DNA from: a virus
Virus record (IMG/VR): IMGVR_UViG_3300032050_000061
Coordinates: 1-64,000 of that record
Direction: 5' to 3' (one strand)
Length of the DNA stretch: 64,000 nt
In this document: piece by piece, positions 6,117 to 30,580 of the stretch
Numbering within the stretch: the first letter of the stretch is position 1
Layout: each line of letters starts with the position of its first letter
Position numbers and translations under genes: made by a program
Notes under the pieces: model-generated
Told to the model about the DNA's origin: nothing
Databases searched by the model: none
Seen by the model: only the letters and a program-made list of their open reading frames with translations

Positions 6117-6118
6117 AA

Positions 6119-9178: not shown

Positions 9179-9182
9179 ATTA

Positions 9183-9806
9183 TTAAATTTTATCGTAAAA
9201 ATCGTTTTGTTTTTCTTGTCTTTCTATTTCCTTGTGATGATATAGTGAGTAATTTTCATCTGATGGGAAATTTGTAAAAGTTGTGTATCCGGTTATTCTT
9301 TCATGCACTTTTCCATGCCATTGAACTTCTTCGGTATTTTTGTAAATACGAGTTTGATAATCAGGCCAATTTACCCAACCTTTATCATCAACTTTCCAAC
9401 CCCATTTTTGAATATGTGATTGAGTTAATCCTTCTACGGTATTCACTCTTGGAACAAAAATTATATCAACTTCATTTATAGTCAGAATTTGTTTTAATCT
9501 CTCTAATAAAATTTCCGATGGTTCTTCATCTGCATCAATTTGAAAAATGTATTTTCCTTCACAATGTTCTTTTAGATTATTTTTAAAGGATGCAAAATCT
9601 TTATTAAGAGGAAATGATATAATCTTAATTTGTTTTTGTATATCACTAATTATATTGAGATAATCCACAACTTCTTTTGTAACTGATTCACTATCATATT
9701 GAATAACAACCTCATCCTCGCTATCTATACGCACGAGGAGAAAGTTAATTAATGAGGTGAGTTCTTTTAACTCATTACAAACAGTTATAGCGTAACTTAT
9801 TTTCAT
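9183..9806 (-). CDS. Glycosyltransferase family 2
   Basis: ITVCNE, QIDADE, PDYQTR, VHERI. Confidence 0.85.
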   Translation of the reverse strand: MKISYAITVCNELKELTSLINFLLVRIDSEDEVVIQYDSESVTKEVVDYLNIISDIQKQIKIISFPLNKDFASFKNNLKEHCEGKYIFQIDADEEPSEILLERLKQILTINEVDIIFVPRVNTVEGLTQSHIQKWGWKVDDKGWVNWPDYQTRIYKNTEEVQWHGKVHERITGYTTFTNFPSDENYSLYHHKEIERQEKQNDFYDKI

Positions 9807-9808
9807 AC

Positions 9809-10267
9809 TTAATCTTCGTTGTGGTGTTTTTCAGAATGTTCTTCCGATTGAACCGGCTTATTATTTGTTGAATTTGTATAACTCCAAGCACTACCACTCG
9901 GATAACCATATGCAGTTGATGTACTTCCAAATCCAAATGGTGGATTAGAGTATGTAATAGAACCATATCCAGGCGTAGCTACAATAGTTCCACCACTACC
10001 AGATGATGTTAGTGTTGTACCATTTGTATCCGGTTGACACGTTATCCTATATGGGTGGTATGGGTCTACATAATGTGGATGTTGCCATACAGGTGTTGTA
10101 TTGGGCGTTCCCCATCCACCTTCTCCAATTGGAGTTCCTATTTTCGGTTCATCACTTACTTCTTTCAATTTATCTTTTAATAAATCCCATTGTTTCGGAG
10201 TAACATTAAATTCATGCACTCCTTCGGTAAATCCTTTTAACCAAAGGACAAATTCTTTAGATGTCAT
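9809..10267 (-). CDS. Hypothetical protein (short conserved N-terminal domain, G/S/T/P-rich tail)
   Basis: EFVLWLKGF...QWDLLKDKL; tightly packed in the operon. Confidence 0.6.
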   Translation of the reverse strand: MTSKEFVLWLKGFTEGVHEFNVTPKQWDLLKDKLKEVSDEPKIGTPIGEGGWGTPNTTPVWQHPHYVDPYHPYRITCQPDTNGTTLTSSGSGGTIVATPGYGSITYSNPPFGFGSTSTAYGYPSGSAWSYTNSTNNKPVQSEEHSEKHHNED

Positions 10268-10269
10268 AA

Positions 10270-10959
10270 CTATGTGTTTGGTTGTGATGTCTGATTAATT
10301 ACTTCTATTTTTTCCGCAATACTCTCAGGCGGTGGTTCTAAATTAATTTCTTTTTGTTTTATTATCTTTTCGACCTTCTCTTCCTTTTTTAACTCCTGTG
10401 GAGTTTGTTTAGGTTTTTCTAATTTCTTCTCCTCATCAATTTTCTCTTTATTAGTATAACCTCTAATCATTTTTGATTTTATATAAGACTTAGTTAATTC
10501 AACTTCTTCAACTGATCTTATTGAAGCCATTTTGTATTCTCTATAATTACCATCGTATATTAAAGGTTTCTTTTTTAAGATTGTAAATAGAGGTTTACCA
10601 TCTAATGGAAATTGTCTTAAAAGAAATCTAAACTCTTCTGCTTCATCAATTTTTTGTTCACTAATTGAATCAGTAGCCGCTTCTAATGCATAAAAGAAAT
10701 TACGAGGATTTACATGCTTTAATTTTAGTGCAGGAAAATAGTAATGAATCATACCTTTTTCATCTTTACCTCTAAATTTTCCTATTAAAAAAATGTAAGT
10801 AGTATCTAATCCTGCCAAAACTTTTGTTTGAGATGGGTCCGCATATTTATAAACTTGTATTTTGTAAAAATTACCAGGTTTCATAATAGTTGTCGAAACC
10901 TTTCTACTTGTCTTAAACAATTTTCCCCATAGAGGTAGATATATCCTAGATTCTGCCAT
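10270..10959 (-). CDS. Hypothetical basic protein
   Basis: 229 aa ORF abutting its neighbours; no secure family. Confidence 0.6.
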   Translation of the reverse strand: MAESRIYLPLWGKLFKTSRKVSTTIMKPGNFYKIQVYKYADPSQTKVLAGLDTTYIFLIGKFRGKDEKGMIHYYFPALKLKHVNPRNFFYALEAATDSISEQKIDEAEEFRFLLRQFPLDGKPLFTILKKKPLIYDGNYREYKMASIRSVEEVELTKSYIKSKMIRGYTNKEKIDEEKKLEKPKQTPQELKKEEKVEKIIKQKEINLEPPPESIAEKIEVINQTSQPNT

Positions 10960-10962
10960 TTT

Positions 10963-12198
10963 TTAGAATTCTGGTAGTATTAAATCAACATGCTTTGCAA
11001 CCTTTATATGTCTATCACAAATACCTTTTAGGGCCTCTGTCATTTTATTATGTGAAAACTTATTTATATTATCCCTACCTAATTTTTTAGATTCGGAGAG
11101 GTATTTATCATAATTATTAAACACATCAATTAATTTGAAAGCCGCATTACTATAATTTACATAAAACCATTGTGATTCAGGTAATAAAAATTGATTTGAA
11201 GCTGATGGGTCTACATTTTTTAATTCACCATCTAATAATACTGATTGTTTATCATTTAGAAAATCTAATTGACCACTCCAACCACTACTTATTACTGGTT
11301 TTCCTGTCATACTAAATTCTAATAGAGGTCTTCCAAATCCTTCACCATGTGTAAATGAGATAGTCGCTTTTACTTTTGGATGATTATATAACTTCCACAT
11401 ATCATCAGGTGTTAAATCACCATGTATAAGATAAATTGAAACATCACTCTTAACCTGAGATGCTACCTCTTCAACTTTTCGGAGAATTTCTTCTCTATCT
11501 CTAATTGAAAATCCCGCTGATGAGGTTTTGAGTATTAGGGCAGGTTTCTCACCCTTCGTTCTACTAAATGCAGAAAGAAATGTTTGAATCATTCCGCCTA
11601 CATCTTTTCTATCATGATAAAGATTTCCTTGTAACCAATGGCCTACGAATAAGAAACAAAAGTTTTCTTTAATAGAATCTAATTTATCCAAACCATCTAA
11701 CTCTTTGTAATCAGTTCCTTCAAATAAAACTTCTACCGGCTTTGAAACTCTATGTTCGGTTATTACCTGTTGAGTGGTTTTATCCCTTTCTGTCCATTGT
11801 GTCCCAGCTATACCTGATTTAGAATGCTGTGAAGTTGTAATAACCAAATCCATTCGGTTACACCCATCAACCCAATCCTTCGGTATTACAGTCGTTTCAA
11901 TTCCAGCGGTAACCCCTATATTAAATTTTCCTACTTGTTGAAATTCATTTGGAACTGTCATCTGAACATATACATCAGGTTGTATATTTATTTCACCAAC
12001 AATATTATCTAGTATCCATTTATGAAATTCATCGTTTGGATTAAGTTGATCCATAGGGGTTGCTCCCCATCTCGTTGAAACAATCTTAATGTCATAATAA
12101 TCTAAATCTCTAAATGATTTGAGTAAATCTCTTGCATGATCTCCATATCCACTCCTAGTCGCTATTGGAGCTTGATATAATAAAAATGGTTTAGCCAT
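10963..12198 (-). CDS. Glycosyltransferase family 4 (GT-B)
   Basis: SGYG, RKDV, GEGFGRPLLE. Confidence 0.88.
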   Translation of the reverse strand: MAKPFLLYQAPIATRSGYGDHARDLLKSFRDLDYYDIKIVSTRWGATPMDQLNPNDEFHKWILDNIVGEINIQPDVYVQMTVPNEFQQVGKFNIGVTAGIETTVIPKDWVDGCNRMDLVITTSQHSKSGIAGTQWTERDKTTQQVITEHRVSKPVEVLFEGTDYKELDGLDKLDSIKENFCFLFVGHWLQGNLYHDRKDVGGMIQTFLSAFSRTKGEKPALILKTSSAGFSIRDREEILRKVEEVASQVKSDVSIYLIHGDLTPDDMWKLYNHPKVKATISFTHGEGFGRPLLEFSMTGKPVISSGWSGQLDFLNDKQSVLLDGELKNVDPSASNQFLLPESQWFYVNYSNAAFKLIDVFNNYDKYLSESKKLGRDNINKFSHNKMTEALKGICDRHIKVAKHVDLILPEF

Positions 12199-12205
12199 TC
12201 GTAAC

Positions 12206-13591
12206 TTATTTTATTTTATATAATTCAAATCTTTCTTTTGGTTTCCAATTTTCAAAGGCCCTTTCCATCCCTTTAACCATTTCATCCGCCATTCTTTGTG
12301 AATAGAATCCGTTTTCTGAAAGGATGAACTCTCTACCTTTTAATCCCATTTCTTTCCTTTTTTCTTTCGGAATGTCATACCAATACTTAAATGCATCTGC
12401 TAATTCATATACATCTATTTTATCATCTATGATGTAAGGAGTTGGAACTGAACCGTTCATATTTTGAGCCCTTGCCCACAATGGCTTAACCCATTCTCCA
12501 TGCTCTACTTTATCTTCCCATTCTCTCCAATCATGCAAAGAACCAATCTTAACATAATCTTCTGCGGTTAATAACTTTCCATCCAATTTAAATCCACATT
12601 GGTCTTGCAAACCACCTGTCACTAATAAGATAGATGGAACACCTGCCATTATACCTTCACAAGTCGTTAGGCCAAATCCTTCATTACCGGCAATGTTCAC
12701 CGATACATCACAAAGATTTAGTAATTGATTTATTTGTTCGGTAGATAATCTATTCGTTGAAAATTTAATTTCTGCATCAGGTGCTAATCTTTTTGCAACG
12801 GCAACTAAATCAGTTCCATTTTCATCGACCGGCTGTGTATGCATCAATAACATCACCTTCTTTCTCTTTTCCTCCGGTAATTTATCTAAAAACTTTTGGA
12901 ATGCCCAAATAACATCTGATGGTTGTTTTCTACGAATGTTTCTATTTGACCAATAAACTACGAATTCGTAATCATTACCTGCAAATAGTTTTTGTTTCAA
13001 CTCATCACTACTATCTTCTAATGGTTTATACAATTTTGATACACCATGTGGAACATAACTTACTTGCCAATCTTCCAACGGCTTCCAAGTTTTCCCATTT
13101 TGTAATGCACCGGTTCTTTTAACAATGCCATAAGTTTGCTTAGAGATACAACCCAACCAATCACAACTTTCATAGTAATCTCTATTGTAGTGTGGATCTG
13201 GCAAATCATCCCAAATATGGTAGAAGAAAATTGGACAAGTTTGTCGAATTTCATGCTCCATATCATACAACCAAATCCAATAACGAGGGTCGGTAAAATG
13301 TAGGATAGCATCTATTTTGTGTTTAGATAATAGGTTTCTAATTAAATCCGCATTACCATATCCACTATTAGGATAAAGTATTACACTAGCATCTTCAACA
13401 CCACTATGCTTTTTTACATCATCGGATACATCAATTATTTTCCCAACTTCGGGATGTTGAACGGCTGCTGCAACCTGAATCCAATTGTATTTGCTTACGG
13501 AACCTAAAACTATTTCTTTTGACATAGTAGCTATACCACTATGCATTCTTAAATCATCTGATAGAAGAAGAATTGTTTTTTTATTATTCAT
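12206..13591 (-). CDS. Glycosyltransferase family 4 (GT-B)
   Basis: VPHG, NRNIRRKQ, NEGFGLTTCEG. Confidence 0.88.
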   Translation of the reverse strand: MNNKKTILLLSDDLRMHSGIATMSKEIVLGSVSKYNWIQVAAAVQHPEVGKIIDVSDDVKKHSGVEDASVILYPNSGYGNADLIRNLLSKHKIDAILHFTDPRYWIWLYDMEHEIRQTCPIFFYHIWDDLPDPHYNRDYYESCDWLGCISKQTYGIVKRTGALQNGKTWKPLEDWQVSYVPHGVSKLYKPLEDSSDELKQKLFAGNDYEFVVYWSNRNIRRKQPSDVIWAFQKFLDKLPEEKRKKVMLLMHTQPVDENGTDLVAVAKRLAPDAEIKFSTNRLSTEQINQLLNLCDVSVNIAGNEGFGLTTCEGIMAGVPSILLVTGGLQDQCGFKLDGKLLTAEDYVKIGSLHDWREWEDKVEHGEWVKPLWARAQNMNGSVPTPYIIDDKIDVYELADAFKYWYDIPKEKRKEMGLKGREFILSENGFYSQRMADEMVKGMERAFENWKPKERFELYKIK

Positions 13592-14188: not shown

Positions 14189-15030
14189 ATTTTTCTCTCC
14201 TTAAACTCACACCAATCACACTGCTTCCCTTTGTTAGTTGGATAATCTACATCTTTATATTTTCCCTCTTCATCAAATACACTCTCTACGAAATCCATAA
14301 ACCCTTTCCATGCTTTATTGATAGAAGGTTTACCACTCGCAGGAACGTGCTTTGAAATACGAGGAATTGGATAATCAGCATCTTCCTTAACTTTTCTTTT
14401 AAGGATATGAAATTCTACATTAACCTTATCCTCATCTATCTTATACTTTTCAGCGTAAAACTTTTTGTATAATAAGATTTGTGCGTTCTTAATCGGGTCT
14501 GCCTTTTGGTATTTATTCCAACCGGCAGTTGATGTTTTAAAATCTATGATGGTAATTTTCTTTGTAGCAATTTCTCTGATAATAATATCGACAAATCCAA
14601 TAAAGTGCACATTCTCTTTAATAGGCATATTAAGTGGTAATTCTATTGCCACCAATTCATATCCCTTTTTAGAAAAGAACAATACTAATTTACTTTTAAA
14701 GTATTGTAGTATCTTTCTACCATCACCGAAGAATTCTTCTAACTCTTCTTTTGTGCAAGGAAATTCATTCTCTCCTAACTTTTCTTTTTCTTTATTAAAG
14801 TTTTCAACTAATCTATCTTTCAACAACATATCCAAATCCATTGCCAACGCCGATGATTTAGTTGCATTATACATTACATCTAAAAACTTTTGTAAGGTTT
14901 CATGCATTGCTGTTCCGAAAATCAAATGTATGTTAGCATTTGAAATAGATAGCCCATCAATATAAGATAGCTTATATTGTTGAGGGCAAGATGTCCACAT
15001 TGAATATTGAGAAAAAGATACTCTTGCCAT
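14170..15030 (-). CDS. PD-(D/E)XK exonuclease, Cas4/AddB-like, probable Fe-S cluster
   Basis: N-terminal CP, FGTAMHE, E...GFVD...IDFKT, QILLY, C-terminal CDWC...C. Confidence 0.85.
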   Translation of the reverse strand: MARVSFSQYSMWTSCPQQYKLSYIDGLSISNANIHLIFGTAMHETLQKFLDVMYNATKSSALAMDLDMLLKDRLVENFNKEKEKLGENEFPCTKEELEEFFGDGRKILQYFKSKLVLFFSKKGYELVAIELPLNMPIKENVHFIGFVDIIIREIATKKITIIDFKTSTAGWNKYQKADPIKNAQILLYKKFYAEKYKIDEDKVNVEFHILKRKVKEDADYPIPRISKHVPASGKPSINKAWKGFMDFVESVFDEEGKYKDVDYPTNKGKQCDWCEFKERKICSLWS

Positions 15031-15488
15031 TATTTCTTTTTGGTTTTAGTTTTTGTAGATTTTTTTTCTTTTTCTACTTCTCCATACTTTGTTTTTAAGT
15101 AAGTGAAGTATTCATCACCTTCTTTGATATGAGTGAGAATGTTGTAGTAATCAATTGCTGTATTTTTTGAACAATTGTATTCTACCATAATCAATTCTAC
15201 TAATTTTTCATTAGCAGATTCCTCACTCTTTCCCTTAATATAACGAAGGTATTGCTTTCCTTTCGGTAAAACTCCTATCATAAAAAGATAGTAAAGTTTA
15301 GGCTCCATTGTTTGAGTTAATGGTTGAAATTGGGCAATGGTTTCTACAAAATCATAGTTCATAGAAAGAAATCTATGAATCATATAATTACTCCAAGTCT
15401 TTAAATCTTCTTCGGATAATTTATCGAAGTAATTAGGATCTTGGTCTTTTGTTATAGCGTTAAGATGGTCGAAAAGCGTTTTAGCCAT
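15030..15488 (-). CDS. Clamp loader small subunit (T4 gp62-like)
   Basis: LFDHLNAI, YMIHRFLS, LPKGKQYLRYIK. Confidence 0.7.
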   Translation of the reverse strand: MAKTLFDHLNAITKDQDPNYFDKLSEEDLKTWSNYMIHRFLSMNYDFVETIAQFQPLTQTMEPKLYYLFMIGVLPKGKQYLRYIKGKSEESANEKLVELIMVEYNCSKNTAIDYYNILTHIKEGDEYFTYLKTKYGEVEKEKKSTKTKTKKK

Positions 15489-16060
15489 TATCCAGCAATA
15501 TATTTGTTATAAAATTCTAATTTAAATTGAGAATACCCAATTCTGCAGTTTTTTTCCCAATCATCCATCCCACCATCATCACTTACCCATTTGTAAGAAA
15601 CTATCGGTATTTTGAACTCTTTGCAAACTCTCGTAATTGAGTATAATTCCATTTCAAATATACTACATTTATTTAACAATTCCAACTTTTTAGGGGGAAA
15701 GTTTTTAACCTTTTCCTTCGTAATAAAGGTTTCGGATGTGAAGCAGCTAACTCCTTCATTTTCAATCTCTAAATAATCCCCATCCTGGTCGAAAGGGGTG
15801 ATAGAATAGGGAACTAATGGTTCTGCATCCATATCACCATTATATACATCTTTAACCTTTAATAACATACCCTTATCCATACTAAAACTCCCACAGCTAC
15901 CAAAATTACAAACTAAATCAGGTTTGTGTTCCAATATGCCCATAGCCGTTTTATATCCAGCGTTTATCTTTCCAACGCCAGTATGAATAATCGGATAATC
16001 AAACAAAGTATCATATCCATCTGATTCTTCTTTTAATGCACAAACAAATAATACTTTCAT
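15488..16060 (-). CDS. mtnN: MTA/SAH nucleosidase (PNP/UDP phosphorylase family)
   Basis: ALKEE, TGVGKINA, NFGSCG, FEME, KWVSD. Confidence 0.8.
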   Translation of the reverse strand: MKVLFVCALKEESDGYDTLFDYPIIHTGVGKINAGYKTAMGILEHKPDLVCNFGSCGSFSMDKGMLLKVKDVYNGDMDAEPLVPYSITPFDQDGDYLEIENEGVSCFTSETFITKEKVKNFPPKKLELLNKCSIFEMELYSITRVCKEFKIPIVSYKWVSDDGGMDDWEKNCRIGYSQFKLEFYNKYIAG

Positions 16061-16066
16061 ACTCTA

Positions 16067-16381
16067 CTACAATTCTAATGTTAAATTACTTTGAGGTTCT
16101 TGTGGAGGAGGTGTCTTAACTTCTTGCTTTTCTTGTTTTGGTTTTCTAAGTTCTGCGGGTATCAACTCATCAACGGGCTTTCCACAACTTCCGCATATCA
16201 ATATATCAAATGGTAATACCGCATCTTTTGTTGTCCCGGTTACCAATTTTGAAAATTTCTTAATAATAGCTGCGGAGATAAAATACTCACCTCCACAATT
16301 TGAACAATTAAAATCCTGTGCCTGTGACCAATCTATTTTTGGCTGAGGTGGTAATTGTTGGTTTCCTAAAATTTGTGCCAT
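16067..16381 (-). CDS. Zinc-ribbon protein
   Basis: CSNCGG and CGSCG pairs. Confidence 0.65.
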   Translation of the reverse strand: MAQILGNQQLPPQPKIDWSQAQDFNCSNCGGEYFISAAIIKKFSKLVTGTTKDAVLPFDILICGSCGKPVDELIPAELRKPKQEKQEVKTPPPQEPQSNLTLEL

Positions 16382-16392
16382 AGTTTTTGTTT

Positions 16393-17295
16393 TTATTTTT
16401 TAATGTTTCTTTTTAATACTTCAAATATTTTTTCGTGTCCATTTTCATTAGGATGACACGGATCGGGAGTTCCATAAGGTCTATCCGGCATTAACCATTC
16501 TTTCCATATAGTTGTATCATTACCACTATATAATGGTTCAATTAGAACATCAGTTATTTTATTTTTTTCATCTATCTCATCGATGAAGAAAAAGTTTTCA
16601 TCTTTAAAAGTGTTATAAAAGCAATTTTTAATTTCACTTTCCTCTGTCAAAAATCTTACCATCGATTTAGCGAAAAATGTAGAATTCCCTACATAATAAT
16701 CTTTGTAATTTAGTTTATATCCCATAATAGGAATTGGTATATCAAAGAATAAGTGTTCTATCTCATTTTTTTCAAACCATTTGTGAACTAAATAAATCGA
16801 ATAACTGTTTTGTTTAAATAACTCTTTTAGATAATCAACCCATTTTGTGTGGTCAAAATCTTTTTTGTAATGCCAATACTTTCTATTGTAGAAATTTTCG
16901 TATTCAGTCCAATAACCTACCCAATCATCTATTCTTAAAATCTCTTCCTTTTCCCCATACTCTTCTCTAAAATCATCAACCCTAAAGCTATTAGAGTTTA
17001 CTTCTTTAAAAAATCTATTACCATAAAAAGGATTAGGAATAAGGTCTTTATCTATTTGTCTTTCGAAATATGTAGTCTGAAATAATACCAAACTATTCTT
17101 ATAAAATTCTATTGGTTTATTCATTAGAGTATTACTCCCTACTATATTACCTGCACCACTAATTGATAGGTTAATTAGTGGAACTCCTAACCAATCAGCA
17201 ATTCTTTGCCCATAGATTTTATCCTTATCAGCATTTAATCCATAACTGATAGAACAACCCCATAATATAACTTTATCTATTTTTCCCATATCCAT
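16393..17295 (-). CDS. SGNH/GDSL hydrolase-like protein
   Basis: WGCSISYG, NLSISGAGN, DPCHPNENGH. Confidence 0.7.
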   Translation of the reverse strand: MDMGKIDKVILWGCSISYGLNADKDKIYGQRIADWLGVPLINLSISGAGNIVGSNTLMNKPIEFYKNSLVLFQTTYFERQIDKDLIPNPFYGNRFFKEVNSNSFRVDDFREEYGEKEEILRIDDWVGYWTEYENFYNRKYWHYKKDFDHTKWVDYLKELFKQNSYSIYLVHKWFEKNEIEHLFFDIPIPIMGYKLNYKDYYVGNSTFFAKSMVRFLTEESEIKNCFYNTFKDENFFFIDEIDEKNKITDVLIEPLYSGNDTTIWKEWLMPDRPYGTPDPCHPNENGHEKIFEVLKRNIKK

Positions 17296-18506
17296 ATTGG
17301 TTCTCCAAATGCTTGATTTTTTCCTTCTTCCGCTTGCTTCTTTGAATCATCTGAATAATAATCACTTACGGCAGTTCCAGCACCTCCGCTGTTGGGTCTT
17401 TTCGTCATTTCCATGCCAATACACCCTCTATATTTTAACCCCCTAGAATGGAGGAAATCATTCATAGCGTTGGTTATATCTACATACCCACCATCAGGTG
17501 CAGAAAACACATCTGAAATGTTTACGGCTAAGATTCCACCCTTCTTCAAAGTCGGAATCATTTTCTCTAATGCCTTATGTAAAAAATTAGTATTCCAATC
17601 ATCTATTTTTTTATATCTCAAATAAGATTGAGTATCGTGATCTGAATACCTTTCAGTATTGAAGTAAGGTGGTGAAGTAAAAATTGTATCAAAATAATTT
17701 TCATATTCCGAATAATCTACATCTTCCGCCGGTTGTGGAATAAATGTAGCTCTTTTTTCACTCTCAAAAAATGTTTGATTAAACTTATAGTATTCTTCTT
17801 GCAAAAGATAGTGTTGATGATTATTTAAGTTCGGGTCTATACCAACATAATGTTTAGTATTATCACCCGCATAAAATCCTGCAAATCTATCACCCCATCC
17901 TGCCGAAAAATCTAAAATGTATTCGGATTTAAAATAATCGTAAAGTGCTTTTGCAACATTTGGTTTGAATTGAGATGCTACATATTTTCTCAAATTCATC
18001 GCCATCTTTAAGGTATTAATGCTTACATCAGTTAAAACCTTATCTAATGTAAAGAATGCTCTTACAATGGTCTTTATTCCTTCAACTGTCTGCCACGTTC
18101 TCCAACCGGATGGGCCTCTTACCCAATCAACTTTATATCGGTTCTCTACGTGGAATTTATTGGATGCTTTATTACCAACGGTATACTTTTTGAAATACAT
18201 AAACTTACCATCAAATGTAAGTGGGTATTTACTCTCTCTACCATTACGAGGAAACCAATTACCTTCAATCAATATATCAGGCCACCAAGTTCCTTTTAAT
18301 TTTTTGTAATCTTCTAATACCTCTTCATTAGTATAAACCGGTATAGGTAATGGATATGTATGACAGACTTCTGATAGGGTTTCTATAATTTCTTCTTTAT
18401 CATAAGTTTTTAAAATATATGCCCACTCCTCCTCATCAATAGTGAGGTATGGTTTCATATCATAAAACTTACTAAAGTATTCTTTTATAGTTTTCTCCAT
18501 ATCCAA
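17277..18506 (-). CDS. SAM-dependent DNA amino-methyltransferase-like protein (SPPY), paralog 2
   Basis: DFSAGWGDR motif I, FTSPPYFNTE motif IV. Confidence 0.82.
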   Translation of the reverse strand: MDMEKTIKEYFSKFYDMKPYLTIDEEEWAYILKTYDKEEIIETLSEVCHTYPLPIPVYTNEEVLEDYKKLKGTWWPDILIEGNWFPRNGRESKYPLTFDGKFMYFKKYTVGNKASNKFHVENRYKVDWVRGPSGWRTWQTVEGIKTIVRAFFTLDKVLTDVSINTLKMAMNLRKYVASQFKPNVAKALYDYFKSEYILDFSAGWGDRFAGFYAGDNTKHYVGIDPNLNNHQHYLLQEEYYKFNQTFFESEKRATFIPQPAEDVDYSEYENYFDTIFTSPPYFNTERYSDHDTQSYLRYKKIDDWNTNFLHKALEKMIPTLKKGGILAVNISDVFSAPDGGYVDITNAMNDFLHSRGLKYRGCIGMEMTKRPNSGGAGTAVSDYYSDDSKKQAEEGKNQAFGEPIWIWEK

Positions 18507-19714
18507 ATAGGTTCACAAAATCTTTTACCTTCCGCTTCCTTTGCTTTTTCTAATGCCTCTTCGGTATAACGGTCTTCATCACCTTCAATAATTGCCCCCG
18601 CTCCTGCTGAACCAGGTCTCTTTGCCATCTCCATGCCCAAACATCCTTCGTATTCCGCACCTAATGTTTGGATATAATCATTCATTGGGTTTGTAATTTC
18701 AACATAACCCTTTTCTCTATCATTTGATTTAGCATAAACATCTGCAATGTTCACTGCCAAATAACCTCCTTTACGAATAGTTGGCCATAAGTTATGAATT
18801 ACTTTATGTAAAAATTGTTCATTCCATGCATCAATAGATTTATATCTTACCCAACTTTGAGTATCATCATAAGAATACCTCTCAACATTAAAGTAAGGAG
18901 GTGATGTAAATACTATATCAAAATGGTCGGTATATTGTGAAAAATCTAAATCTTCGGCAGGTGAGCAATGAAAATCTGCTTTCTTTTCTATTTCAAAAAA
19001 TGTTCGGTGTTTTTCATACCAATCTGCTTGCTGACGATATATCGGGTGATTTTCTTTTCTAGGGTCTACGCCTACATAATGCTTTCCGGTTTCACTTGCA
19101 TAGAATCCCGCTAAACGGTCTCCCCATCCTGCTGAAAAATCTAATACATTCTCTACTTTAAGATAATCGTATAATGCCTTTGCCACATTAGGTTTAAATT
19201 GTGCACAAATGTATTTTCTTAAACCTAAACAAGTTCTCAAAGAGTTTCTATCTATCTCATCAAATTTAAGAGTATATAATCCACCCATAAGTGAAACCAT
19301 AAACTCTCTTGTTTCCCAAGTTCTTTTTGGGCCAGGTGAAACGGTACCGTCTACACTCCAACGATTTGCCTGTTGGAAAAAATTAGAGGATTCATTACCA
19401 ACATTATTTCTACTGAAGTATTGTTGTTTACCTCTAAATGTTATTGGGTATCTGCTTTCTGATGCTTTTCGTGGAAACCATTCTCCTTCTTTAAGAATGT
19501 CAGCCCACCATGTACCTTTTAATTTCTTATACGCATCTAATACTTCTGCATCAGAAATTTGTGCGTAAGGTATTGGGTATTCCATAAGAATGTCGGCCAA
19601 TGTTTCCTTAACATCATTAATATCGAATGTATTTTTTATATACGTCCACTCCTCTTTACCTATGTGTAAGTAAGGAGTCATTCCCTTAAATTTGTCGAAA
19701 TAATCTAAATACAT
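18485..19714 (-). CDS. SAM-dependent DNA amino-methyltransferase-like protein (SPPY), paralog 1
   Basis: DFSAGWGDR, FTSPPYFNVE; colinear with the downstream paralog. Confidence 0.82.
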   Translation of the reverse strand: MYLDYFDKFKGMTPYLHIGKEEWTYIKNTFDINDVKETLADILMEYPIPYAQISDAEVLDAYKKLKGTWWADILKEGEWFPRKASESRYPITFRGKQQYFSRNNVGNESSNFFQQANRWSVDGTVSPGPKRTWETREFMVSLMGGLYTLKFDEIDRNSLRTCLGLRKYICAQFKPNVAKALYDYLKVENVLDFSAGWGDRLAGFYASETGKHYVGVDPRKENHPIYRQQADWYEKHRTFFEIEKKADFHCSPAEDLDFSQYTDHFDIVFTSPPYFNVERYSYDDTQSWVRYKSIDAWNEQFLHKVIHNLWPTIRKGGYLAVNIADVYAKSNDREKGYVEITNPMNDYIQTLGAEYEGCLGMEMAKRPGSAGAGAIIEGDEDRYTEEALEKAKEAEGKRFCEPIWIWRKL

Positions 19715-20267
19715 TTCTTATAAAGTTATATTTTTTATTATCAATGATGGTTTCTATATTTTTATGAGCCGGTAATCTCAACTTATAAATTGAGCCAGAA
19801 ATAAATCCTTCTTTTTTACCATGCCACATTTCACTATTTTCATCTACTAATTCAAACCCATTTCTTTCGTAAAATTTTCTAGCTGTTTCGTTTGCAGTTC
19901 TAACTGATAGAATAATGTTTTCACATTGCTTTGATTTACAATACTCTACAAACTGATTAAATACTTTTTGAGCAGAACCATTTCTTTCTTTTGATGCTAT
20001 TTGGTGAATAATCATATCACCTTTTTTCTTTCTAGCAAATGTCTTTCTTGCAATCTTAGAATTACCCTTGCTTTTCTCAAAGGTTATAACTACGCCATCT
20101 TGCAATACTACACCACCATTAGGTTTATTAAAGTATTTTTTCAACTTAAATCCTTGTCCAGCCAAATGGGGAAATACTTTTGGATATAAATCAATTATTT
20201 CCATTGCTTCTCTGATGGCTGCATCCATTTCATCACCCTCATTTTGTATATTAAGTATTCTAACCAT
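19686..20267 (-). CDS. GNAT-family acetyltransferase, Lys-rich
   Basis: IHQIAS...NGSA, LSVRTANETARKFYERNGF. Confidence 0.85.
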   Translation of the reverse strand: MVRILNIQNEGDEMDAAIREAMEIIDLYPKVFPHLAGQGFKLKKYFNKPNGGVVLQDGVVITFEKSKGNSKIARKTFARKKKGDMIIHQIASKERNGSAQKVFNQFVEYCKSKQCENIILSVRTANETARKFYERNGFELVDENSEMWHGKKEGFISGSIYKLRLPAHKNIETIIDNKKYNFIRNVFRLFRQI

Positions 20268-21720
20268 TTATTGAGAAAAATTTATTAAGTAGTATATCAT
20301 TCTTATACGAATATAAGGATTTTAATTGAGATTTCAAAGTATCTTTACGAAGTTCCATCATATCACCGGTTCTACAGCCTTTTGCAAAGTAAACCTTAGG
20401 TCTATAAAGAAGTTCATCTGAAATCTCTCCCTTAAATGCTGCTCTTAATAAGGGTTTCATATGTCCACCTTCTTTTTGATAAAGGGGTGGAATGTTTAGT
20501 GTATATTCTACAAACGGTCTCCAACTATAAGGAGTTCTAACCTCTACGGTTCCACCCCACATAATAGATTGGTTCGTTGTTAGAAAGTTTGTTTTATGAA
20601 CATCTTCTACTAACTTTCTTCTTGCCTTATCGTAATCTTCCGGTCTCCAATGAAACGCCTGAATATGTCCATAACTTCCCCATATCTCATCTGAAAGGTC
20701 TCCACTAAACACAACTTTAAATCCTAACTCATTTATTTTTTTGGATAGGGCTATTTGTGCAATCGCTGAACCAACATTTTGCCATCTACTTTGTTCAATC
20801 ACATAAAGTGTTTCTTCAATTGCATCTTCTACATCTTTTTCAGTCAATATAATTTCATGCAACTTAACACCGAATTCTTTTGCAGCAATTCGTGCATATT
20901 TTATATCATCGTTCTTTGTATCACCATCTCCCATTGAAACTACAAATGCCTCAATGTCAGGCTTAATACGCGAAAGTATATAAGTTGTAATTACTGAATC
21001 AATACCACCGCTTAGAATTGTGCAAATGGGAACATCTGAAACCATCTTTACTTTTACGGCTTCTTCTAACATTTTTCTAATGTTATTGACAATAGTTTCT
21101 CTATCATCATTTATTATTTCAGTTGGAAGTTTGTAATAAGTTTGGGCTGAATGTTCTAATGTTTTGTAATTATATTCTAAATAAGTACCAGGATAAATTG
21201 CCTTTACTTGTGTATCATATAAATCAGTAAGTGGAAGGCCTTTCTTTTCGGAACAAAATACTAACTTACCATCGTTATCAATCCCATACCAAAGTGGAAG
21301 TTCACCTACATAATCTCTAACTACAAATACCTTATCTATTTTAGTATCAACTATTGCAAATGAAAACATACCATCTAATAACTCAAATGATTTAGTTCCA
21401 AATTCACAATATGCGTTTAAAATTATTTCAGTATCAGATTTAGTTTTGAACTTTGTTTTTAGAGATGACTTCAATTCTTTAGTTTCAACGCTATCCCAAA
21501 GTTCCCCATTATATACAATACAAACCGTCTTATCTTCATTCCACATTGGTTGATTCGCAGTTGAGGAAAGGTCTTGTATTGAAAGGCGGTTATGCCCTAC
21601 ATAGATGTCATCAATTACATCTACAATAGAAGCATCTCTACCTCTATGAATTATTTTTTGTAAATGGTCTTTGGTTTGCTTTATTGATGTAAACCAATTA
21701 CCTCCTATTATTCCGCACAT
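20260..21720 (-). CDS. asnB: Asparagine synthetase B-like glutamine amidotransferase
   Basis: MCGI Ntn nucleophile, HRG, RLSIQD, NGE, SDTE; LSGGIDS PP-loop, SGDLSDE. Confidence 0.9.
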   Translation of the reverse strand: MCGIIGGNWFTSIKQTKDHLQKIIHRGRDASIVDVIDDIYVGHNRLSIQDLSSTANQPMWNEDKTVCIVYNGELWDSVETKELKSSLKTKFKTKSDTEIILNAYCEFGTKSFELLDGMFSFAIVDTKIDKVFVVRDYVGELPLWYGIDNDGKLVFCSEKKGLPLTDLYDTQVKAIYPGTYLEYNYKTLEHSAQTYYKLPTEIINDDRETIVNNIRKMLEEAVKVKMVSDVPICTILSGGIDSVITTYILSRIKPDIEAFVVSMGDGDTKNDDIKYARIAAKEFGVKLHEIILTEKDVEDAIEETLYVIEQSRWQNVGSAIAQIALSKKINELGFKVVFSGDLSDEIWGSYGHIQAFHWRPEDYDKARRKLVEDVHKTNFLTTNQSIMWGGTVEVRTPYSWRPFVEYTLNIPPLYQKEGGHMKPLLRAAFKGEISDELLYRPKVYFAKGCRTGDMMELRKDTLKSQLKSLYSYKNDILLNKFFSING

Positions 21721-21992
21721 TAAAACTTTTCTTTTTTCTTAAAGTATTTGAGGATTATTATCTTACCAATAGAGCCAGATAAAAGAAATAGGATAATTGT
21801 AACCCAATCACCCTTTAAAAAACTATCTACTGAATACGCGGTTGATGCAATCCAAAAGGCAGTTTGTATATTAAATAATAAAACTGATTTTGTTATATCA
21901 TTTTCAACTACCCATTTTATTTCTAAAACTTTAAATACGGCTAACGCTAATTGAGAAAATACAACAAATAAATAAACTAAAAAATCATTCAC
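21720..21992 (-). CDS. Small three-TM membrane protein
   Basis: Three hydrophobic segments, basic C-terminus. Confidence 0.55.
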   Translation of the reverse strand: MNDFLVYLFVVFSQLALAVFKVLEIKWVVENDITKSVLLFNIQTAFWIASTAYSVDSFLKGDWVTIILFLLSGSIGKIIILKYFKKKEKF

Positions 21993-22936
21993 TATTTAAC
22001 TAATTGTATTACTGAAATAATAGTTGCCATAAATGTAATCTCCTTATCAACTACTAATGCATCTTTTGATGTTCCTTCCGCTAATGCAATAATAACATTT
22101 GCAGTATTTCCTTTTGCGTAATCATCCAACTTATCATATAGAAACGAATAAACATCAGTAAAATCTGAAATACGATTATCAGCTACTAATTGTCTTATTA
22201 CCATAAACTTATTCCTAACTTCATCTTTTGATTTTAGTATTTCTACTAATTTGATACGAAAATCAGAATCAACTATTGTAGCACTATCAGTTTTCAAAAC
22301 ACCATTAACACAAGCTAATTGACAGGTATTAATAATTTTTCTGATATCAGGATAATATCCATCTACAATAGGAACTAAATCAGCCGGATTAAATTGTATA
22401 TCCTCTTCTTTTAGAATTTTAGCAATTTGAACCGCTACATCTTTCTTTGTTGGGGGTACAATTTGAAATGATTGACATCTACTTTGAATTGGAAGAATGA
22501 TTTTCTCTATGTAATTACACGTCAAAATGAATCTACAATGCTTACTAAATGTTTCCATTAAGTTTCTTAACAACGCCTGTGCATTAGGTGTCATATAATC
22601 AAACTCATCCAATATAATAATCTTATATGGCTTGAATCCAACTCCACTTGCAAAGTTTTTCACTTTATTACGAACCGTATCAACATTGTTCTCATCAGAT
22701 GCGTTGATAATCATTACATCGGATTCGATATTTTTTACGATTAGTTTAGCGAGTGTTGTCTTACCTGTCCCCGCTTTACCGAAGAAAAGTAAGTGAGGTA
22801 TATCACCACTTTCGATATACCCCTTTACTTTTGCTTTGAGATTTTCATTACCTACATAATCATCTAACTTTGTAGGTCTATATTTCTCAACCCAAAGTGA
22901 GTGAACTTGTTCTTCTTGTTGTTCGAAAAAACTCAT
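21992..22936 (-). CDS. Clamp loader large subunit (RFC / T4 gp44-like)
   Basis: WVEKYRP, GKAGTGKT, DEFD, SRC. Confidence 0.95.
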   Translation of the reverse strand: MSFFEQQEEQVHSLWVEKYRPTKLDDYVGNENLKAKVKGYIESGDIPHLLFFGKAGTGKTTLAKLIVKNIESDVMIINASDENNVDTVRNKVKNFASGVGFKPYKIIILDEFDYMTPNAQALLRNLMETFSKHCRFILTCNYIEKIILPIQSRCQSFQIVPPTKKDVAVQIAKILKEEDIQFNPADLVPIVDGYYPDIRKIINTCQLACVNGVLKTDSATIVDSDFRIKLVEILKSKDEVRNKFMVIRQLVADNRISDFTDVYSFLYDKLDDYAKGNTANVIIALAEGTSKDALVVDKEITFMATIISVIQLVK

Positions 22937-29521: not shown

Positions 29522-30580
29522 TTAGTTTTTTTTGTTAAAAATAAAGATAGGTTCGTATTTTATACCCTTCCCAGCAATACTGGATAATGCAAGTTTTATT
29601 GTTTTTTCTAATACAAATCCTTCTTCTTCCGCTACTCTAATCGTTTCACTTTCTATATCTTTATGTTTAGGAGTATTTGCTATATTTAATAACATTTTAC
29701 CCCCACTTTTTAAGCCAATATGACAATTTGCCATAGTTTGTTTTAAAAATCCATCCACCCATAAATGTGGTGTAGGGTATTTTTTATATGATTGGGTTTC
29801 CTCATCACTATATTTTTCAGTATCGAAATAAGGTGGTGAAGTAAAACACAAATCTAATGAATCTTTTTCTGGTACGAATACTTCCGAACCTAATTGGTGG
29901 AGTATAACATTTTTACCATAAAAATTTAGGTCTTTATTTAATTTACCTAATCCCTCATAAGTTTTACCGCTAGGATCAGTTCCTATATACGTTTTACAAT
30001 TACTCGTTAGGAATCCAATTAATCTACCTCCCCATCCACAACTCATATCCCACACGGTCTCCCCACCATAGTTATTATATATCCATTTAGCAGCCGAAGG
30101 TCTGAAATTACTGACAGTTTGGTTGCCACCATATATTTTGAAATTTTGTCTTAAACGATTTAGGGTAAATTTACCATCACTATGTTTAAGATGCCAATTC
30201 CAAGTCTTTCTAATAATTTCTTTGAACTTACTATCATCATTCCAATAATCAATTGGTTTCATTTTACTATTACCACATTGAACATCTATCCAATGGGGAA
30301 AATAACTCCATGCCAATCCTAAACAATGCATTGTTTGGTCAATATAACCATCTTTAAATAAAGTTGATTCATCAAACTCACTTAAAGATTTCATATCACC
30401 AATCATATTATCGGTGGTTGAATGGTAGTGAGGAAATCCTTTTTTTCGATGATACTTAAAAATTATATCTAATGCTGATTGAACATCATCTATTTCTTTT
30501 ATATTTTGAGTTATTCTTTCATACTCTAAATCTAACTCATCCCATTCTATAAACTTAGCAAAAGTATTATAGTTTATCAT
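29522..30580 (-). CDS. SAM-dependent DNA amino-methyltransferase-like protein (SPPY), third family member
   Basis: NFRP, DMSCGWGGR, FTSPPYFDTEKY, EPIFIF. Confidence 0.82.
   Translation of the reverse strand: MINYNTFAKFIEWDELDLEYERITQNIKEIDDVQSALDIIFKYHRKKGFPHYHSTTDNMIGDMKSLSEFDESTLFKDGYIDQTMHCLGLAWSYFPHWIDVQCGNSKMKPIDYWNDDSKFKEIIRKTWNWHLKHSDGKFTLNRLRQNFKIYGGNQTVSNFRPSAAKWIYNNYGGETVWDMSCGWGGRLIGFLTSNCKTYIGTDPSGKTYEGLGKLNKDLNFYGKNVILHQLGSEVFVPEKDSLDLCFTSPPYFDTEKYSDEETQSYKKYPTPHLWVDGFLKQTMANCHIGLKSGGKMLLNIANTPKHKDIESETIRVAEEEGFVLEKTIKLALSSIAGKGIKYEPIFIFNKKN

What the first reader, a model, noticed from the sequence alone, without database searches (positions are those of the whole stretch)
15488..21720. 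Candidate new DNA hypermodification pathway: AsnB amidotransferase, GNAT, tandem SPPY methyltransferases and MTA/SAH nucleosidase
Seen: asnB-like, a Lys-rich GNAT and two DNA amino-MTase-fold paralogs overlap one another in a continuous run, followed closely by an MTA/SAH nucleosidase. The block lies between the two clamp-loader subunit genes. Known: AsnB-family enzymes amidate carboxylates, and GNATs acylate amines (phage Mu Mom is a GNAT that modifies adenine). Some SAM-fold enzymes transfer 3-amino-3-carboxypropyl (acp, releasing MTA) or carboxymethyl groups instead of methyl. Inference: the MTase-like proteins may attach an acp or carboxymethyl group to a base, AsnB amidates the carboxyl, GNAT acylates the amine, and the nucleosidase removes the inhibitory MTA/SAH. 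That would be diphthamide-like chemistry on DNA. Simpler alternatives are plain methylation plus unrelated auxiliary genes, or AsnB/GNAT acting on glycans.
Basis: partly seen in the sequence, partly recalled or inferred. Interest (0 to 1): 0.85.

Follow-up and report, generated by a model that had tools for sequence, protein, structure and literature searches.

The report
Phage DNA hypermodification cassette candidate
A widespread uncultured freshwater T4-like phage carries, inside its DNA-replication genes, an asparagine-synthetase-like amidotransferase and an acetyltransferase locked onto virus-specific methyltransferase-like genes; they probably build an undescribed amide-bearing decoration on the phage's DNA bases, but no chemistry has been measured.

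Summary
On the minus strand, between clamp-loader genes gp44 and gp62, lie overlapping genes for an AsnB-like glutamine amidotransferase, a GNAT and two 409-aa SPPY methyltransferase-like paralogs (53% identical).

Comparative genomics supports a functional unit. In all 33 AsnB-bearing viral contigs long enough to show it, AsnB is followed by GNAT and then the MT gene, in at least three genome arrangements. In close relatives a PLP enzyme fills the same slot. That enzyme is homologous to the proven phage M6-type decarboxylase of DNA-bound amino acids, and elsewhere it is fused to an MT-family domain.

The best cultured-phage AsnB homolog sits in a CmoA/CmoX-type carboxymethylcytosine cluster. 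This phage group has no CmoA, C5-MTase, thymidylate-synthase homolog or amino-acid:DNA transferase, so the MT family is the only candidate installer.

Verdict: probably (about 0.5) a new variant of the "SAM-dependent transferase plus AsnB-like amide former" type of DNA hypermodification. The group transferred (aminocarboxypropyl is favoured, then carboxymethyl or methyl) is inferred, not shown. Plain methylation plus unrelated accessory genes remains possible. The scan has flagged this same cassette before on other DNA.

The parts
20260..21720 (-). AsnB-like glutamine-dependent amidotransferase (486 aa); predicted to amidate a carboxylate other than free aspartate
   Evidence: Pfam GATase_7/Asn_synthase. 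1ct9 E. coli AsnB 2.3e-49. Alignment A3: Cys2, the Gln-site residues and SGGIDS are kept, while E. coli TTxR, D384 and R387 are replaced. Always followed by GNAT and MT.
19686..20267 (-). GNAT acetyltransferase (193 aa), always paired with AsnB
   Evidence: PF00583 6e-6, phrog_1249. Weak RimI/Naa50/PseH likeness. Present in 29 loci of the same cluster, directly upstream of the MT gene.
18485..19714 (-). MT_A: virus-specific SAM-dependent amino-alkyltransferase-like protein (409 aa); anchor gene of the cassette and a core gene of the phage clade
   Evidence: Motifs X-I-II-III-IV in gamma-like order. AF2 pLDDT 93.5. Best folds are TrmN/Trm11/Trm14/METTL5/RsmC/D at Z 15-16. Profile match to a Thermus DNA methylase over motifs IV-VI. 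4634 clusters in the protein library. All nearest Atlas clusters are viral.
17277..18506 (-). MT_B: tandem paralog of MT_A (409 aa, 53% identical), variably present in relatives
16393..17295 (-). SGNH/GDSL-like hydrolase candidate (300 aa), found only in the closest relatives
   Evidence: No Pfam hit. Conserved GCS...GAGN...DxxHPNExGH blocks in A2. Weak match to the GDSL end of the phage 80alpha tail lysin, E 0.096. Present in 15 loci.
16067..16381 (-). Zn-ribbon protein (104 aa); a core gene between gp44 and gp62 across the clade and probably not part of the cassette
   Evidence: Two CxxC pairs. Present in 62 of 80 loci next to gp44/gp62.
15488..16060 (-). Short MTA/SAH-nucleosidase-like protein (190 aa)
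   Evidence: PF01048 36.9 bits, above the 25.1 cut-off. PDB MTANs 8e-8, with EME and SD catalytic motifs aligned. NF004168 'nucleosidase' 1e-14, below its cut-off. Paired with a phosphoribosyltransferase in L038, L069 and L077.
29522..30580 (-). Third MT-family paralog (352 aa) beside the ribonucleotide reductase small subunit
   Evidence: Same blast cluster as MT_A/B. PF01555 6e-5.
21992..22936 (-). gp44-type clamp-loader large subunit (upstream flank)
   Evidence: phrog_168 4.2e-85.
15030..15488 (-). gp62-type clamp-loader small subunit (downstream flank)
   Evidence: PF16790 2.6e-10, phrog_225 1.5e-16.

Best explanation
The block is a DNA base hypermodification cassette built into the replication module of an uncultured freshwater T4-like phage. 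The virus-specific SPPY proteins (MT_A, MT_B and a third paralog) are SAM-dependent transferases that alkylate an exocyclic amino group of a DNA base. In this phage the accessory pair AsnB-like plus GNAT then tailors the attached group. AsnB adenylates a carboxylate on it and turns it into a primary amide with glutamine-derived ammonia, and GNAT acetylates an amine. Close relatives carry, in the same slot, a PLP decarboxylase homolog that would trim the same handle differently. The nucleosidase-like enzyme removes the SAM by-product (MTA or SAH). Shown here: gene content, intact catalytic motifs, conserved linkage, slot swapping and the fusion. Inferred: DNA as the substrate, the target base and the group transferred. 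The favoured group is 3-amino-3-carboxypropyl from SAM, because it offers both the carboxylate and the amine that AsnB, GNAT and a PLP enzyme each need and requires no extra cofactor synthase.
For: 1) Linkage. All 35 viral contigs recovered with AsnB have GNAT next to it. The 33 that extend far enough have the MT gene next, in at least three genome arrangements. Of 80 MT-centred loci, 26 have AsnB+GNAT, 12 have a PLP gene, 3 have AsnB-like plus PLP, and 18 have neither. 2) Slot swap. In L007, L008, L010 and L011 (MT_A 87-92% identical to the window) a 255-aa PALP gene replaces AsnB+GNAT. It is homologous to the M6/PAE1-type PLP enzyme (E 5e-11 to 5e-9). In PAE1 that enzyme lies between the amino-acid:DNA transferase and the radical-SAM gene, and the M6 enzyme gp52 is an experimentally shown decarboxylase of amino acids attached to DNA (PMC8989533). 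3) Fusion. P0240 joins an MT-family domain to a PALP-like domain. The same PALP type is 45% identical to a domain inside the Erythrobacter phage R6L 'DNA modification methylase'. 4) AsnB context. The closest cultured-phage AsnB homolog, TurkishDelight gp124 (30% identity, 1e-46), lies between a C5-MTase homolog and a CmoA-like gene. That is the Gln-dependent variant of the CmoX/CmoY system described in PMC12783734. In phage Motura the homolog lies between QueC and the DNA transglycosylase. 5) AsnB keeps the glutaminase and PP-loop sites but lacks residues needed for aspartate in E. coli AsnB (the residue roles are from my own knowledge). 6) Other installers are absent. No thymidylate-synthase homolog was found in the 100%-complete relatives G002 and G003 or in the incomplete records G000, G001 and G005. 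No C5-MTase or CmoA was found in G000 and G002-G005. No amino-acid:DNA transferase was found in G000-G004, and that search had a working positive control. 7) In other relatives MT-family genes lie beside a TET-associated glycosyltransferase and a GmrSD/HNH protein, or are fused to a second N6_N4 methylase or to homing endonucleases. 8) MT_A is more conserved than the DNA polymerase across the clade, 62-65% against 47-49%. 9) Exact pieces of the block occur in four metatranscriptome runs.
Against: No chemical or sequencing-signal evidence exists, and all runs holding the phage are contigs only. The MT fold is closest to RNA and protein amino-methyltransferases, and no classical DNA methylase appears in the top 50. 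The N-terminal domain has no recognisable nucleic-acid-binding fold. About half of the relatives with readable flanks carry the MT gene with no tailoring gene next to it, so the basal product could simply be a methyl group, which offers no handle for AsnB or GNAT. AsnB scores above the TIGR01536 'asparagine synthase' cut-off. An AsnB homolog in cyanophage S-SCSM1 lies in a glycosyltransferase cluster, and this window has a large glycan cluster 1.5 kb downstream. The nucleosidase also occurs in relatives with no tailoring genes near the MT gene. Many of the loci are related to one another, so the counts overstate the number of independent events.
Confidence: 0.5

Rival explanations
1. Plain methylation plus unrelated accessory genes. 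The SPPY paralogs are ordinary orphan DNA N4-cytosine or N6-adenine methyltransferases with different specificities that protect against restriction. The nucleosidase relieves SAH inhibition. AsnB, GNAT and the SGNH protein serve another purpose, such as tailoring the sugars made by the nearby glycosyltransferase cluster or a host metabolite. They sit here because the region tolerates insertions.
For: SPPY and FxGxG motifs and weak PF01555 matches. MT genes stand alone in many relatives. A glycan cluster with GT4, GT2, epimerase and FkbM genes lies downstream. The S-SCSM1 AsnB homolog lies among glycosyltransferases. The GNAT has a weak PseH-like match. The nucleosidase also occurs in MT-only relatives.
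Against: The glycan cluster is conserved in relatives that lack AsnB/GNAT. AsnB/GNAT never sit inside it and stay glued to the MT gene even when about 9 kb of replication genes separate them from it. The alternative occupant of the slot is homologous to a DNA-adduct decarboxylase and is fused to an MT domain elsewhere. An MT gene more conserved than the polymerase is unusual for an orphan methylase.
Confidence: 0.22
2. Carboxymethyl route. The SPPY enzymes use carboxy-SAM supplied by the host's CmoA to make N-carboxymethyl-adenine or -cytosine. AsnB converts this to the carbamoylmethyl amide, a Mom-like product reached by a different route. This would be the amino-transferase counterpart of CmoX/CmoY.
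For: Published precedent for an MTase homolog plus an AsnS homolog acting on DNA, including a glutamine-dependent ligase cluster (PMC12783734). E. coli's own CmoA sufficed for CmoX in that study. The nearest cultured AsnB homolog lies in such a cluster. An invariant Arg follows the glycine loop of motif I in the MT family.
Against: No CmoA was found in this genome or in complete relatives. A carboxymethyl group offers no amine for the GNAT or for a PLP enzyme (inference). The authors of the precedent found no N6/N4 carboxymethyltransferase candidates associated with CmoA.
Confidence: 0.12
3. The targets are not DNA. The MT family methylates host or phage RNA (m2G- or m6A-type) or a protein, and AsnB/GNAT modify the same macromolecule or a small molecule.
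For: The best structural matches are TrmN, Trm11, Trm14, METTL5, RsmC/D and PrmC. JGI annotations read 'RsmD'.
Against: The gene sits in the replication module throughout the clade. It is fused with DNA methylase domains and homing endonucleases. Its neighbours include TET-associated glycosyltransferase, GmrSD/HNH and a DNA-adduct decarboxylase homolog. The sequence profile is closest to a DNA methylase. There are no tRNA genes in the window.
Confidence: 0.08

Closest known systems
CmoA/CmoX/CmoY pathway of Synechococcus phage S-B43 and its glutamine-dependent variant (TurkishDelight type); Yang et al. 2025, PMC12783734
   Same: A methyltransferase homolog installs a carboxyl-bearing group on a DNA base, and an adjacent asparagine-synthetase homolog turns it into an amide. 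Our AsnB's best cultured-phage hit is the amidotransferase of such a cluster.
   Different: There is no CmoA and no C5-MTase. The transferase is a virus-specific SPPY amino-transferase-like family with a novel N-terminal domain. A GNAT is always present. The AsnB shares only about 30% identity. The target is likely an exocyclic amine rather than C5.
Thymidine hypermodification pathways of phages M6, ViI and PaMx11 (Lee et al., PMC8989533)
   Same: Amino-acid-like groups on DNA are sculpted by swappable tailoring enzymes, namely a PLP decarboxylase or an acetyltransferase. The PLP gene that replaces AsnB+GNAT in close relatives is homologous to the M6-type decarboxylase.
   Different: No dUMP/dCMP hydroxymethylase and no amino-acid:DNA transferase were found; a 5-hmdU kinase was not searched for. 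The GNAT has no detectable similarity to phage acetyltransferases.
Diphthamide biosynthesis and tRNA acp modifications (Dph2/Dph5/Dph6; TYW2, a Trm5-like acp transferase)
   Same: By analogy only, from my own knowledge: SAM donates 3-amino-3-carboxypropyl, MTA is released, and the carboxylate is later amidated by an ATP-dependent PP-loop enzyme.
   Different: Those targets are a protein histidine or tRNA bases. No homology to Dph or TYW2 proteins was tested or seen here, and acp on DNA is unknown.
Phage Mu Mom (N6-carbamoylmethyl-adenine)
   Same: The end product could be an amide-bearing N-alkyl purine, and a GNAT-fold protein is involved.
   Different: tblastn of the GNAT against the cultured-phage collection, which should contain Mu, found nothing at E <= 0.01. 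Mom works alone, without an AsnB or MT partner.

Membership tests
CmoA/CmoX/CmoY DNA carboxymethylation system | Phage-encoded carboxy-SAM synthase CmoA | tested here: not met
   TIGR00740 has no match at E <= 0.01 in G000, G002, G003, G004 or G005. TurkishDelight gp125 scores 2.6e-25 with the same model. G000 is only 46% complete, but G002 and G003 are 100% complete.
CmoA/CmoX/CmoY DNA carboxymethylation system | Cytosine-C5 methyltransferase homolog (SPPC motif, Arg for the carboxyl group) | tested here: not met
   PF00145 is absent from the same five records. The transferases here carry SPPY, not SPPC.
CmoA/CmoX/CmoY DNA carboxymethylation system | Asparagine-synthetase homolog encoded beside the transferase | tested here: met
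   AsnB-like gene lies one gene upstream of MT_A in 33 of 33 informative contigs. It is 30% identical to TurkishDelight gp124.
Asparagine synthetase B (true Asn-forming enzyme) | N-terminal Cys nucleophile and glutamine-site residues; PP-loop SGGxDS | tested here: met
   Cys2, the R49, N74-G-E76 and D98 equivalents and SGGIDS are kept in A3.
Asparagine synthetase B (true Asn-forming enzyme) | Residues tied to beta-aspartyl-AMP formation and aspartate binding (E. coli TTxR 321-324, E348, D384, R387; roles from my own knowledge) | tested here: not met
   Replaced by QNVG, D, N and T respectively.
Asparagine synthetase B (true Asn-forming enzyme) | Curated family score | tested here: inconclusive
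   TIGR01536: 288.1 bits against a cut-off of 267.1, passes. NF006949 AsnB: 289.3 against 499, fails.
N6/N4 DNA amino-methyltransferases (PF01555) | Motif IV (S/D/N)PP(Y/F) and SAM motif I | tested here: met
   FTSPPYF and FSAGWGDR; P273 and G196/G198 are invariant, and S271, P272 and Y274 are nearly invariant (90% or more), in 71 diverse members.
N6/N4 DNA amino-methyltransferases (PF01555) | Pfam gathering score | tested here: inconclusive
   MT_A 24.2 bits and MT_B 26.7 bits against a cut-off of 26.7. Only the first 60 of 221 profile positions match.
N6/N4 DNA amino-methyltransferases (PF01555) | Methyl transfer to DNA | not testable with these tools
   Needs an enzyme assay or nucleoside mass spectrometry.
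MTA/SAH nucleosidase (MtnN/Pfs) | PNP_UDP_1 fold with catalytic Glu/Glu/Asp | tested here: met
   PF01048 36.9 bits, above 25.1. The EME and SD motifs and an N-terminal acidic residue align with Vibrio and E. coli MTAN.
MTA/SAH nucleosidase (MtnN/Pfs) | Curated equivalog score and full length | tested here: not met
   All NCBIfam MTAN models are below their cut-offs; the best is NF004168 at 54.7 against 129. The protein is 190 aa against about 230.
Thymidine hypermodification (5-hmdU route) | Thymidylate-synthase-family hydroxymethylase and amino-acid:DNA transferase (PF18724) | tested here: not met
   PF00303 is absent from G000, G001, G002, G003 and G005. PF18724 is absent from G000-G004, with PAE1 as a positive control at 2.4e-48.
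GNAT acetyltransferases | Acetyl-CoA-binding core (Pfam PF00583) | tested here: met
   27.0 bits, above 20.7, over residues 95-138.
SGNH/GDSL hydrolases | Blocks I, II/III and V (Ser; Gly/Asn; Asp-x-x-His) | tested here: inconclusive
   The motifs are invariant in 9 homologs. There is no Pfam hit and only an E 0.096 match to a GDSL domain in the PDB.

The most novel reading that the evidence does not exclude
The virus-specific SPPY family would be the first DNA 3-amino-3-carboxypropyl (acp) transferases. They would move the amino-acid part of SAM onto an exocyclic amine of a DNA base and release MTA. Lineages then diversify this handle: amidation plus N-acetylation in this phage (AsnB+GNAT, a diphthamide-like side chain on DNA), decarboxylation to an aminopropyl group in its close relatives (PLP enzyme), or further decoration elsewhere. 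Because the family is a core replication-module gene of abundant freshwater and marine T4-like phages, this would be a major, globally distributed and so far unseen class of DNA modification.
Probability: 0.2. Interest if true: 0.92.

Novelty: new variant of a known kind. Interest (0 to 1): 0.72.

Why it matters
If the cassette does what the gene logic suggests, SAM-dependent hypermodification of DNA extends beyond cytosine C5 carboxymethylation (described only in late 2025) to a different and much larger transferase family. That family has thousands of clusters, all viral, and its members would probably act on exocyclic amines. It would add amidotransferase-plus-acetyltransferase tailoring to the known toolkit.

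The phage is near-identical in freshwater, river, lake, estuary and wastewater metagenomes from at least eight studies. Such DNA would affect how aquatic viromes are sequenced and how restriction and CRISPR defences act on them. It would also offer new enzymes for site-directed DNA functionalisation. The hypothesis can be tested directly with three to four synthetic genes in E. coli and nucleoside mass spectrometry.

Tried and rejected
- blastn of 15000-22000 against cultured phages: no match.
- The Atlas tool was busy twice. It then answered and showed only viral PF01555-like clusters.
- Foldseek on the full MT_A model gave only generic class I methyltransferases.
- The N-terminal 170 residues, folded alone (pLDDT 83.9), matched nothing: best Z 3.8 and Foldseek E about 0.9. 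The domain gives no clue to the substrate.
- The promoter and terminator scan found no more sites than shuffled sequence.
- Not found in the records searched: thymidylate-synthase family, C5-MTase, CmoA and amino-acid:DNA transferase.
- GNAT tblastn against cultured phages found nothing, so no link to Mom or PaMx11 gp48 could be made.
- No tRNA genes in the window.
- Sequencing runs are available only as assembled contigs, so no modification signal, transcript ends or expression levels can be read.
- I considered AsnB/GNAT/SGNH as part of the adjacent glycan pathway. I ranked this lower because their position follows the MT gene, not the glycan cluster.
- I considered the nucleosidase as a marker of MTA release. 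I rejected it as a discriminator because it also occurs in MT-only relatives.
- No complex-prediction job was sent, because no protein-protein binding claim is made.

Full report
**What is there**

The window is part of an 88-kb IMG/VR viral contig, estimated 46% complete, with about 32% G+C and essentially all called genes on the minus strand. It is a T4-like phage. Its PolB is 50% identical to that of Microcystis phage Mel-JY01 and about 31-34% identical to those of the cyanomyophage and marine-virus records listed.

The gene order from 23.7 kb down to 15.0 kb is:
- sliding clamp;
- gp44 clamp loader;
- a 90-aa membrane protein;
- AsnB-like amidotransferase;
- GNAT;
- MT_A;
- MT_B;
- a 300-aa SGNH-like protein;
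- a 104-aa Zn-ribbon protein;
- a 190-aa MTA/SAH-nucleosidase-like protein;
- gp62.

The AsnB, GNAT, MT_A, MT_B and SGNH genes overlap one another by 8 to 29 nt. A consensus scan found no more promoter- or terminator-like sites than in shuffled sequence.

The window also holds a third MT-family paralog (29522-30580) and a classical N6_N4 DNA methylase (30865-32025), both next to the ribonucleotide reductase genes.

**The proteins**

*AsnB-like protein.* It has the N-terminal Cys nucleophile, all glutamine-site residues and the SGGIDS PP-loop, so it should make a primary amide from a carboxylate using glutamine-derived ammonia. Several positions that I know to be needed for beta-aspartyl-AMP formation or aspartate binding in E. 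coli AsnB are changed: TTxR, E348, D384 and R387 read QNVG, D, N and T. It passes the broad TIGR01536 cut-off but is far below the AsnB equivalog model.

*MT_A and MT_B.* Both carry motifs X, I, II, III and IV in gamma-like order. There is an invariant G-W-G-D-R glycine loop and the motif TSPPYF. The AlphaFold model is confident (pLDDT 93.5). Its catalytic domain is closest to amino-methyltransferases of RNA and protein: TrmN, Trm11, Trm14, METTL5, RsmC/D and PrmC, at Z 13-16. The family profile is closest in sequence to a Thermus DNA methylase across motifs IV-VI. The N-terminal 170 residues have no structural match.

The family is very large (4634 clusters at E <= 0.001), and all of its nearest Atlas clusters are viral. 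Some members are fused to a second N6_N4 methylase, to HTH domains or to LAGLIDADG endonucleases.

*Nucleosidase-like protein.* It aligns with MTANs through the catalytic EME and SD motifs, but it is short and falls below the equivalog cut-offs.

*GNAT.* It is a generic GNAT with weak RimI/Naa50 likeness.

**Comparative genomics**

I fetched 80 IMG/VR loci centred on MT_A homologs and 35 centred on AsnB homologs. I mapped the window's proteins on them and clustered all their ORFs.

MT_A is a core gene of a large aquatic clade. In the marine branch it is typically ordered pol, clamp, MT, gp44, Zn-ribbon, gp62. It is more conserved than the polymerase (62-65% against 47-49% identity).

AsnB and GNAT are accessory, but they are never apart from each other or from the MT gene. 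All 35 AsnB loci have GNAT next, and all 33 that extend far enough have the MT gene next. This holds in at least three arrangements:
- between gp44 and gp62;
- upstream of clamp, MT paralog and pol;
- upstream of pol and clamp.

AsnB alleles have a history of their own. The window's AsnB is about 90% identical both to that of a near-identical relative (pol 97%) and to that of a distant one (pol 58%), whereas GNAT is 96% identical in the near relative and 50% in the distant one. The pair is therefore kept together despite gene exchange.

**The slot is variable in a telling way**

In four close relatives (MT_A 87-92% identical) AsnB+GNAT are replaced by a 255-aa fold-type-II PLP enzyme. Related PLP genes lie beside MT-family genes in about 15 loci in several arrangements.

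This PLP enzyme is homologous to the PLP gene of Pseudomonas phages of the M6/PAE1 group. In PAE1 that gene lies between the amino-acid:DNA transferase (PF18724, confirmed) and the radical-SAM gene. The M6 enzyme gp52 was shown experimentally to decarboxylate amino acids attached to DNA (PMC8989533).

The same PLP type is 45% identical to a domain inside the 'DNA modification methylase' of Erythrobacter phage R6L. One library protein, P0240, is a natural fusion of an MT-family domain and a PLP-like domain.

A more distant relative (L038) strings together MazG, a thymidylate-synthase-like gene, an AsnB-like gene, a PLP-like gene, a large unknown, two MT genes and pol. It also has a phosphoribosyltransferase-nucleosidase pair before gp44. 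Another group (L069 and related loci) has phosphoribosyltransferase, nucleosidase, MT, PLP, a GT1-like gene, a TET-associated glycosyltransferase, a GmrSD/HNH protein and two more MT genes. These neighbours are the kind seen in DNA-modification islands.

**Link to published systems**

A literature search found Yang et al. 2025 (PMC12783734). In Synechococcus phage S-B43, CmoA makes carboxy-SAM, the C5-methyltransferase homolog CmoX makes 5-carboxymethylcytosine, and the asparagine-synthetase homolog CmoY ligates glycine to it. A second large ligase cluster has a glutaminase domain and is predicted to make the amide.

The best cultured-phage hit of the window's AsnB is TurkishDelight gp124. It lies between a C5-MTase homolog and a CmoA-like gene, next to two ParB genes, which is exactly that architecture. 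In Achromobacter phage Motura the homolog lies between QueC and the DNA transglycosylase of a 7-deazaguanine cluster. In cyanophage S-SCSM1, however, it lies among glycosyltransferases.

The present phage group has none of the other candidate installers:
- no CmoA and no C5-MTase;
- no thymidylate-synthase homolog in the two complete relatives;
- no amino-acid:DNA transferase.

If AsnB, GNAT and the PLP enzyme act on DNA adducts, the SPPY family is the only candidate installer. Yang et al. state that they found no N6/N4 carboxymethyltransferase candidates.

**Mechanism proposed**

An SPPY transferase alkylates an exocyclic amine of a DNA base with a SAM-derived group that carries a carboxylate and probably an amine. 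AsnB amidates the carboxylate, and GNAT acetylates the amine. In sister phages the PLP enzyme decarboxylates instead. The nucleosidase, with a phosphoribosyltransferase in some relatives, clears and salvages the adenine-containing by-product.

The 3-amino-3-carboxypropyl group of SAM fits all three tailoring chemistries and needs no extra cofactor. This is inference. Carboxymethyl transfer from host carboxy-SAM is the main chemical alternative.

The nucleosidase does not discriminate between these options. It is found in complete AsnB-bearing relatives away from the cassette and in two of five fragmentary MT-only relatives.

**Weaknesses**

There is no chemical evidence. All public runs that hold the phage are available only as contigs. 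These show that the phage is widespread in fresh waters and that exact pieces of the block occur in four RNA libraries, but nothing about modification.

The MT fold resembles RNA enzymes most. Many relatives have the MT gene alone. A large glycan cluster lies just downstream, so a sugar-tailoring role for AsnB/GNAT/SGNH cannot be excluded. It is disfavoured because their position tracks the MT gene and not that cluster. Loci are phylogenetically related, so counts overstate independence.

**Earlier notes of this scan**

The same cassette was flagged on other DNA several times, with follow-up verdicts like mine. I found the CmoX paper independently.

**Verdict**

This is most likely a new variant of SAM-transferase-plus-amidotransferase DNA hypermodification (confidence about 0.5), with plain methylation plus unrelated accessory genes as the main rival.

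Noticed in passing
window 29522-30580 and 30865-32025 (minus strand): A third MT-family paralog (352 aa) and a classical N6_N4 DNA methylase (386 aa, PF01555 5e-36) lie next to the ribonucleotide reductase small and large subunit genes. The window therefore holds four amino-methyltransferase-like genes, not two.
   Followed up: partly
window 4534-13591 and 169-867: A glycan cluster lies 1.5 kb downstream of gp62, behind a PD-(D/E)XK nuclease gene. It holds GT4 genes (one with a weak 'GT4 in conflict systems' match), GT2 genes, an NDP-sugar epimerase and an FkbM methyltransferase. A 2OG-Fe(II) oxygenase gene lies at its far end. The first GT4 is conserved across the clade, including relatives without AsnB/GNAT. 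Whether the cluster glycosylates virions, host surface or DNA is open.
   Followed up: partly
window 16067-16381: The Zn-ribbon protein between gp44 and gp62 is a core gene of the whole clade (62 of 80 loci), which suggests a replisome accessory role.
   Followed up: no
window 20260-21720 versus L002, L017, L023: AsnB is about 90% identical to both near and distant relatives, while the flanking genes track genome divergence. The AsnB allele seems to be exchanged between lineages independently of GNAT.
   Followed up: partly
L069:1-12500 (also L074, L075, L077): These relatives carry phosphoribosyltransferase, PhoH, nucleosidase, a 536-aa MT paralog, a PLP enzyme, a GT1-like gene, a TET-associated glycosyltransferase (PF20691 1.8e-9), a GmrSD_N+HNH protein, an HD-like protein and two MT genes. 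This is a richer candidate modification island.
   Followed up: partly
L038:4569-12417: A distant relative has MazG, a thymidylate-synthase-like gene (TIGR03283 4e-20, below cut-off), an AsnB-like gene, a PLP-like gene and a 543-aa unknown protein upstream of the two MT genes. This hints at a pre-replicative pyrimidine branch in that lineage.
   Followed up: partly
P0129, P0149 (library proteins): These MT-family members carry an N-terminal LAGLIDADG endonuclease domain. That is typical of homing elements, which target conserved and important phage genes.
   Followed up: no
window 16572 to 21776 (run X15, tables 2 and 5c): One contig from an RNA library joins position 16572 to 21776 with two extra letters, and depth is very high at 16338-16671. 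It may come from an abundant relative that lacks the whole SGNH-MT-GNAT-AsnB stretch. The contig was laid at 90% likeness in a metagenome, so this is unverified.
   Followed up: no
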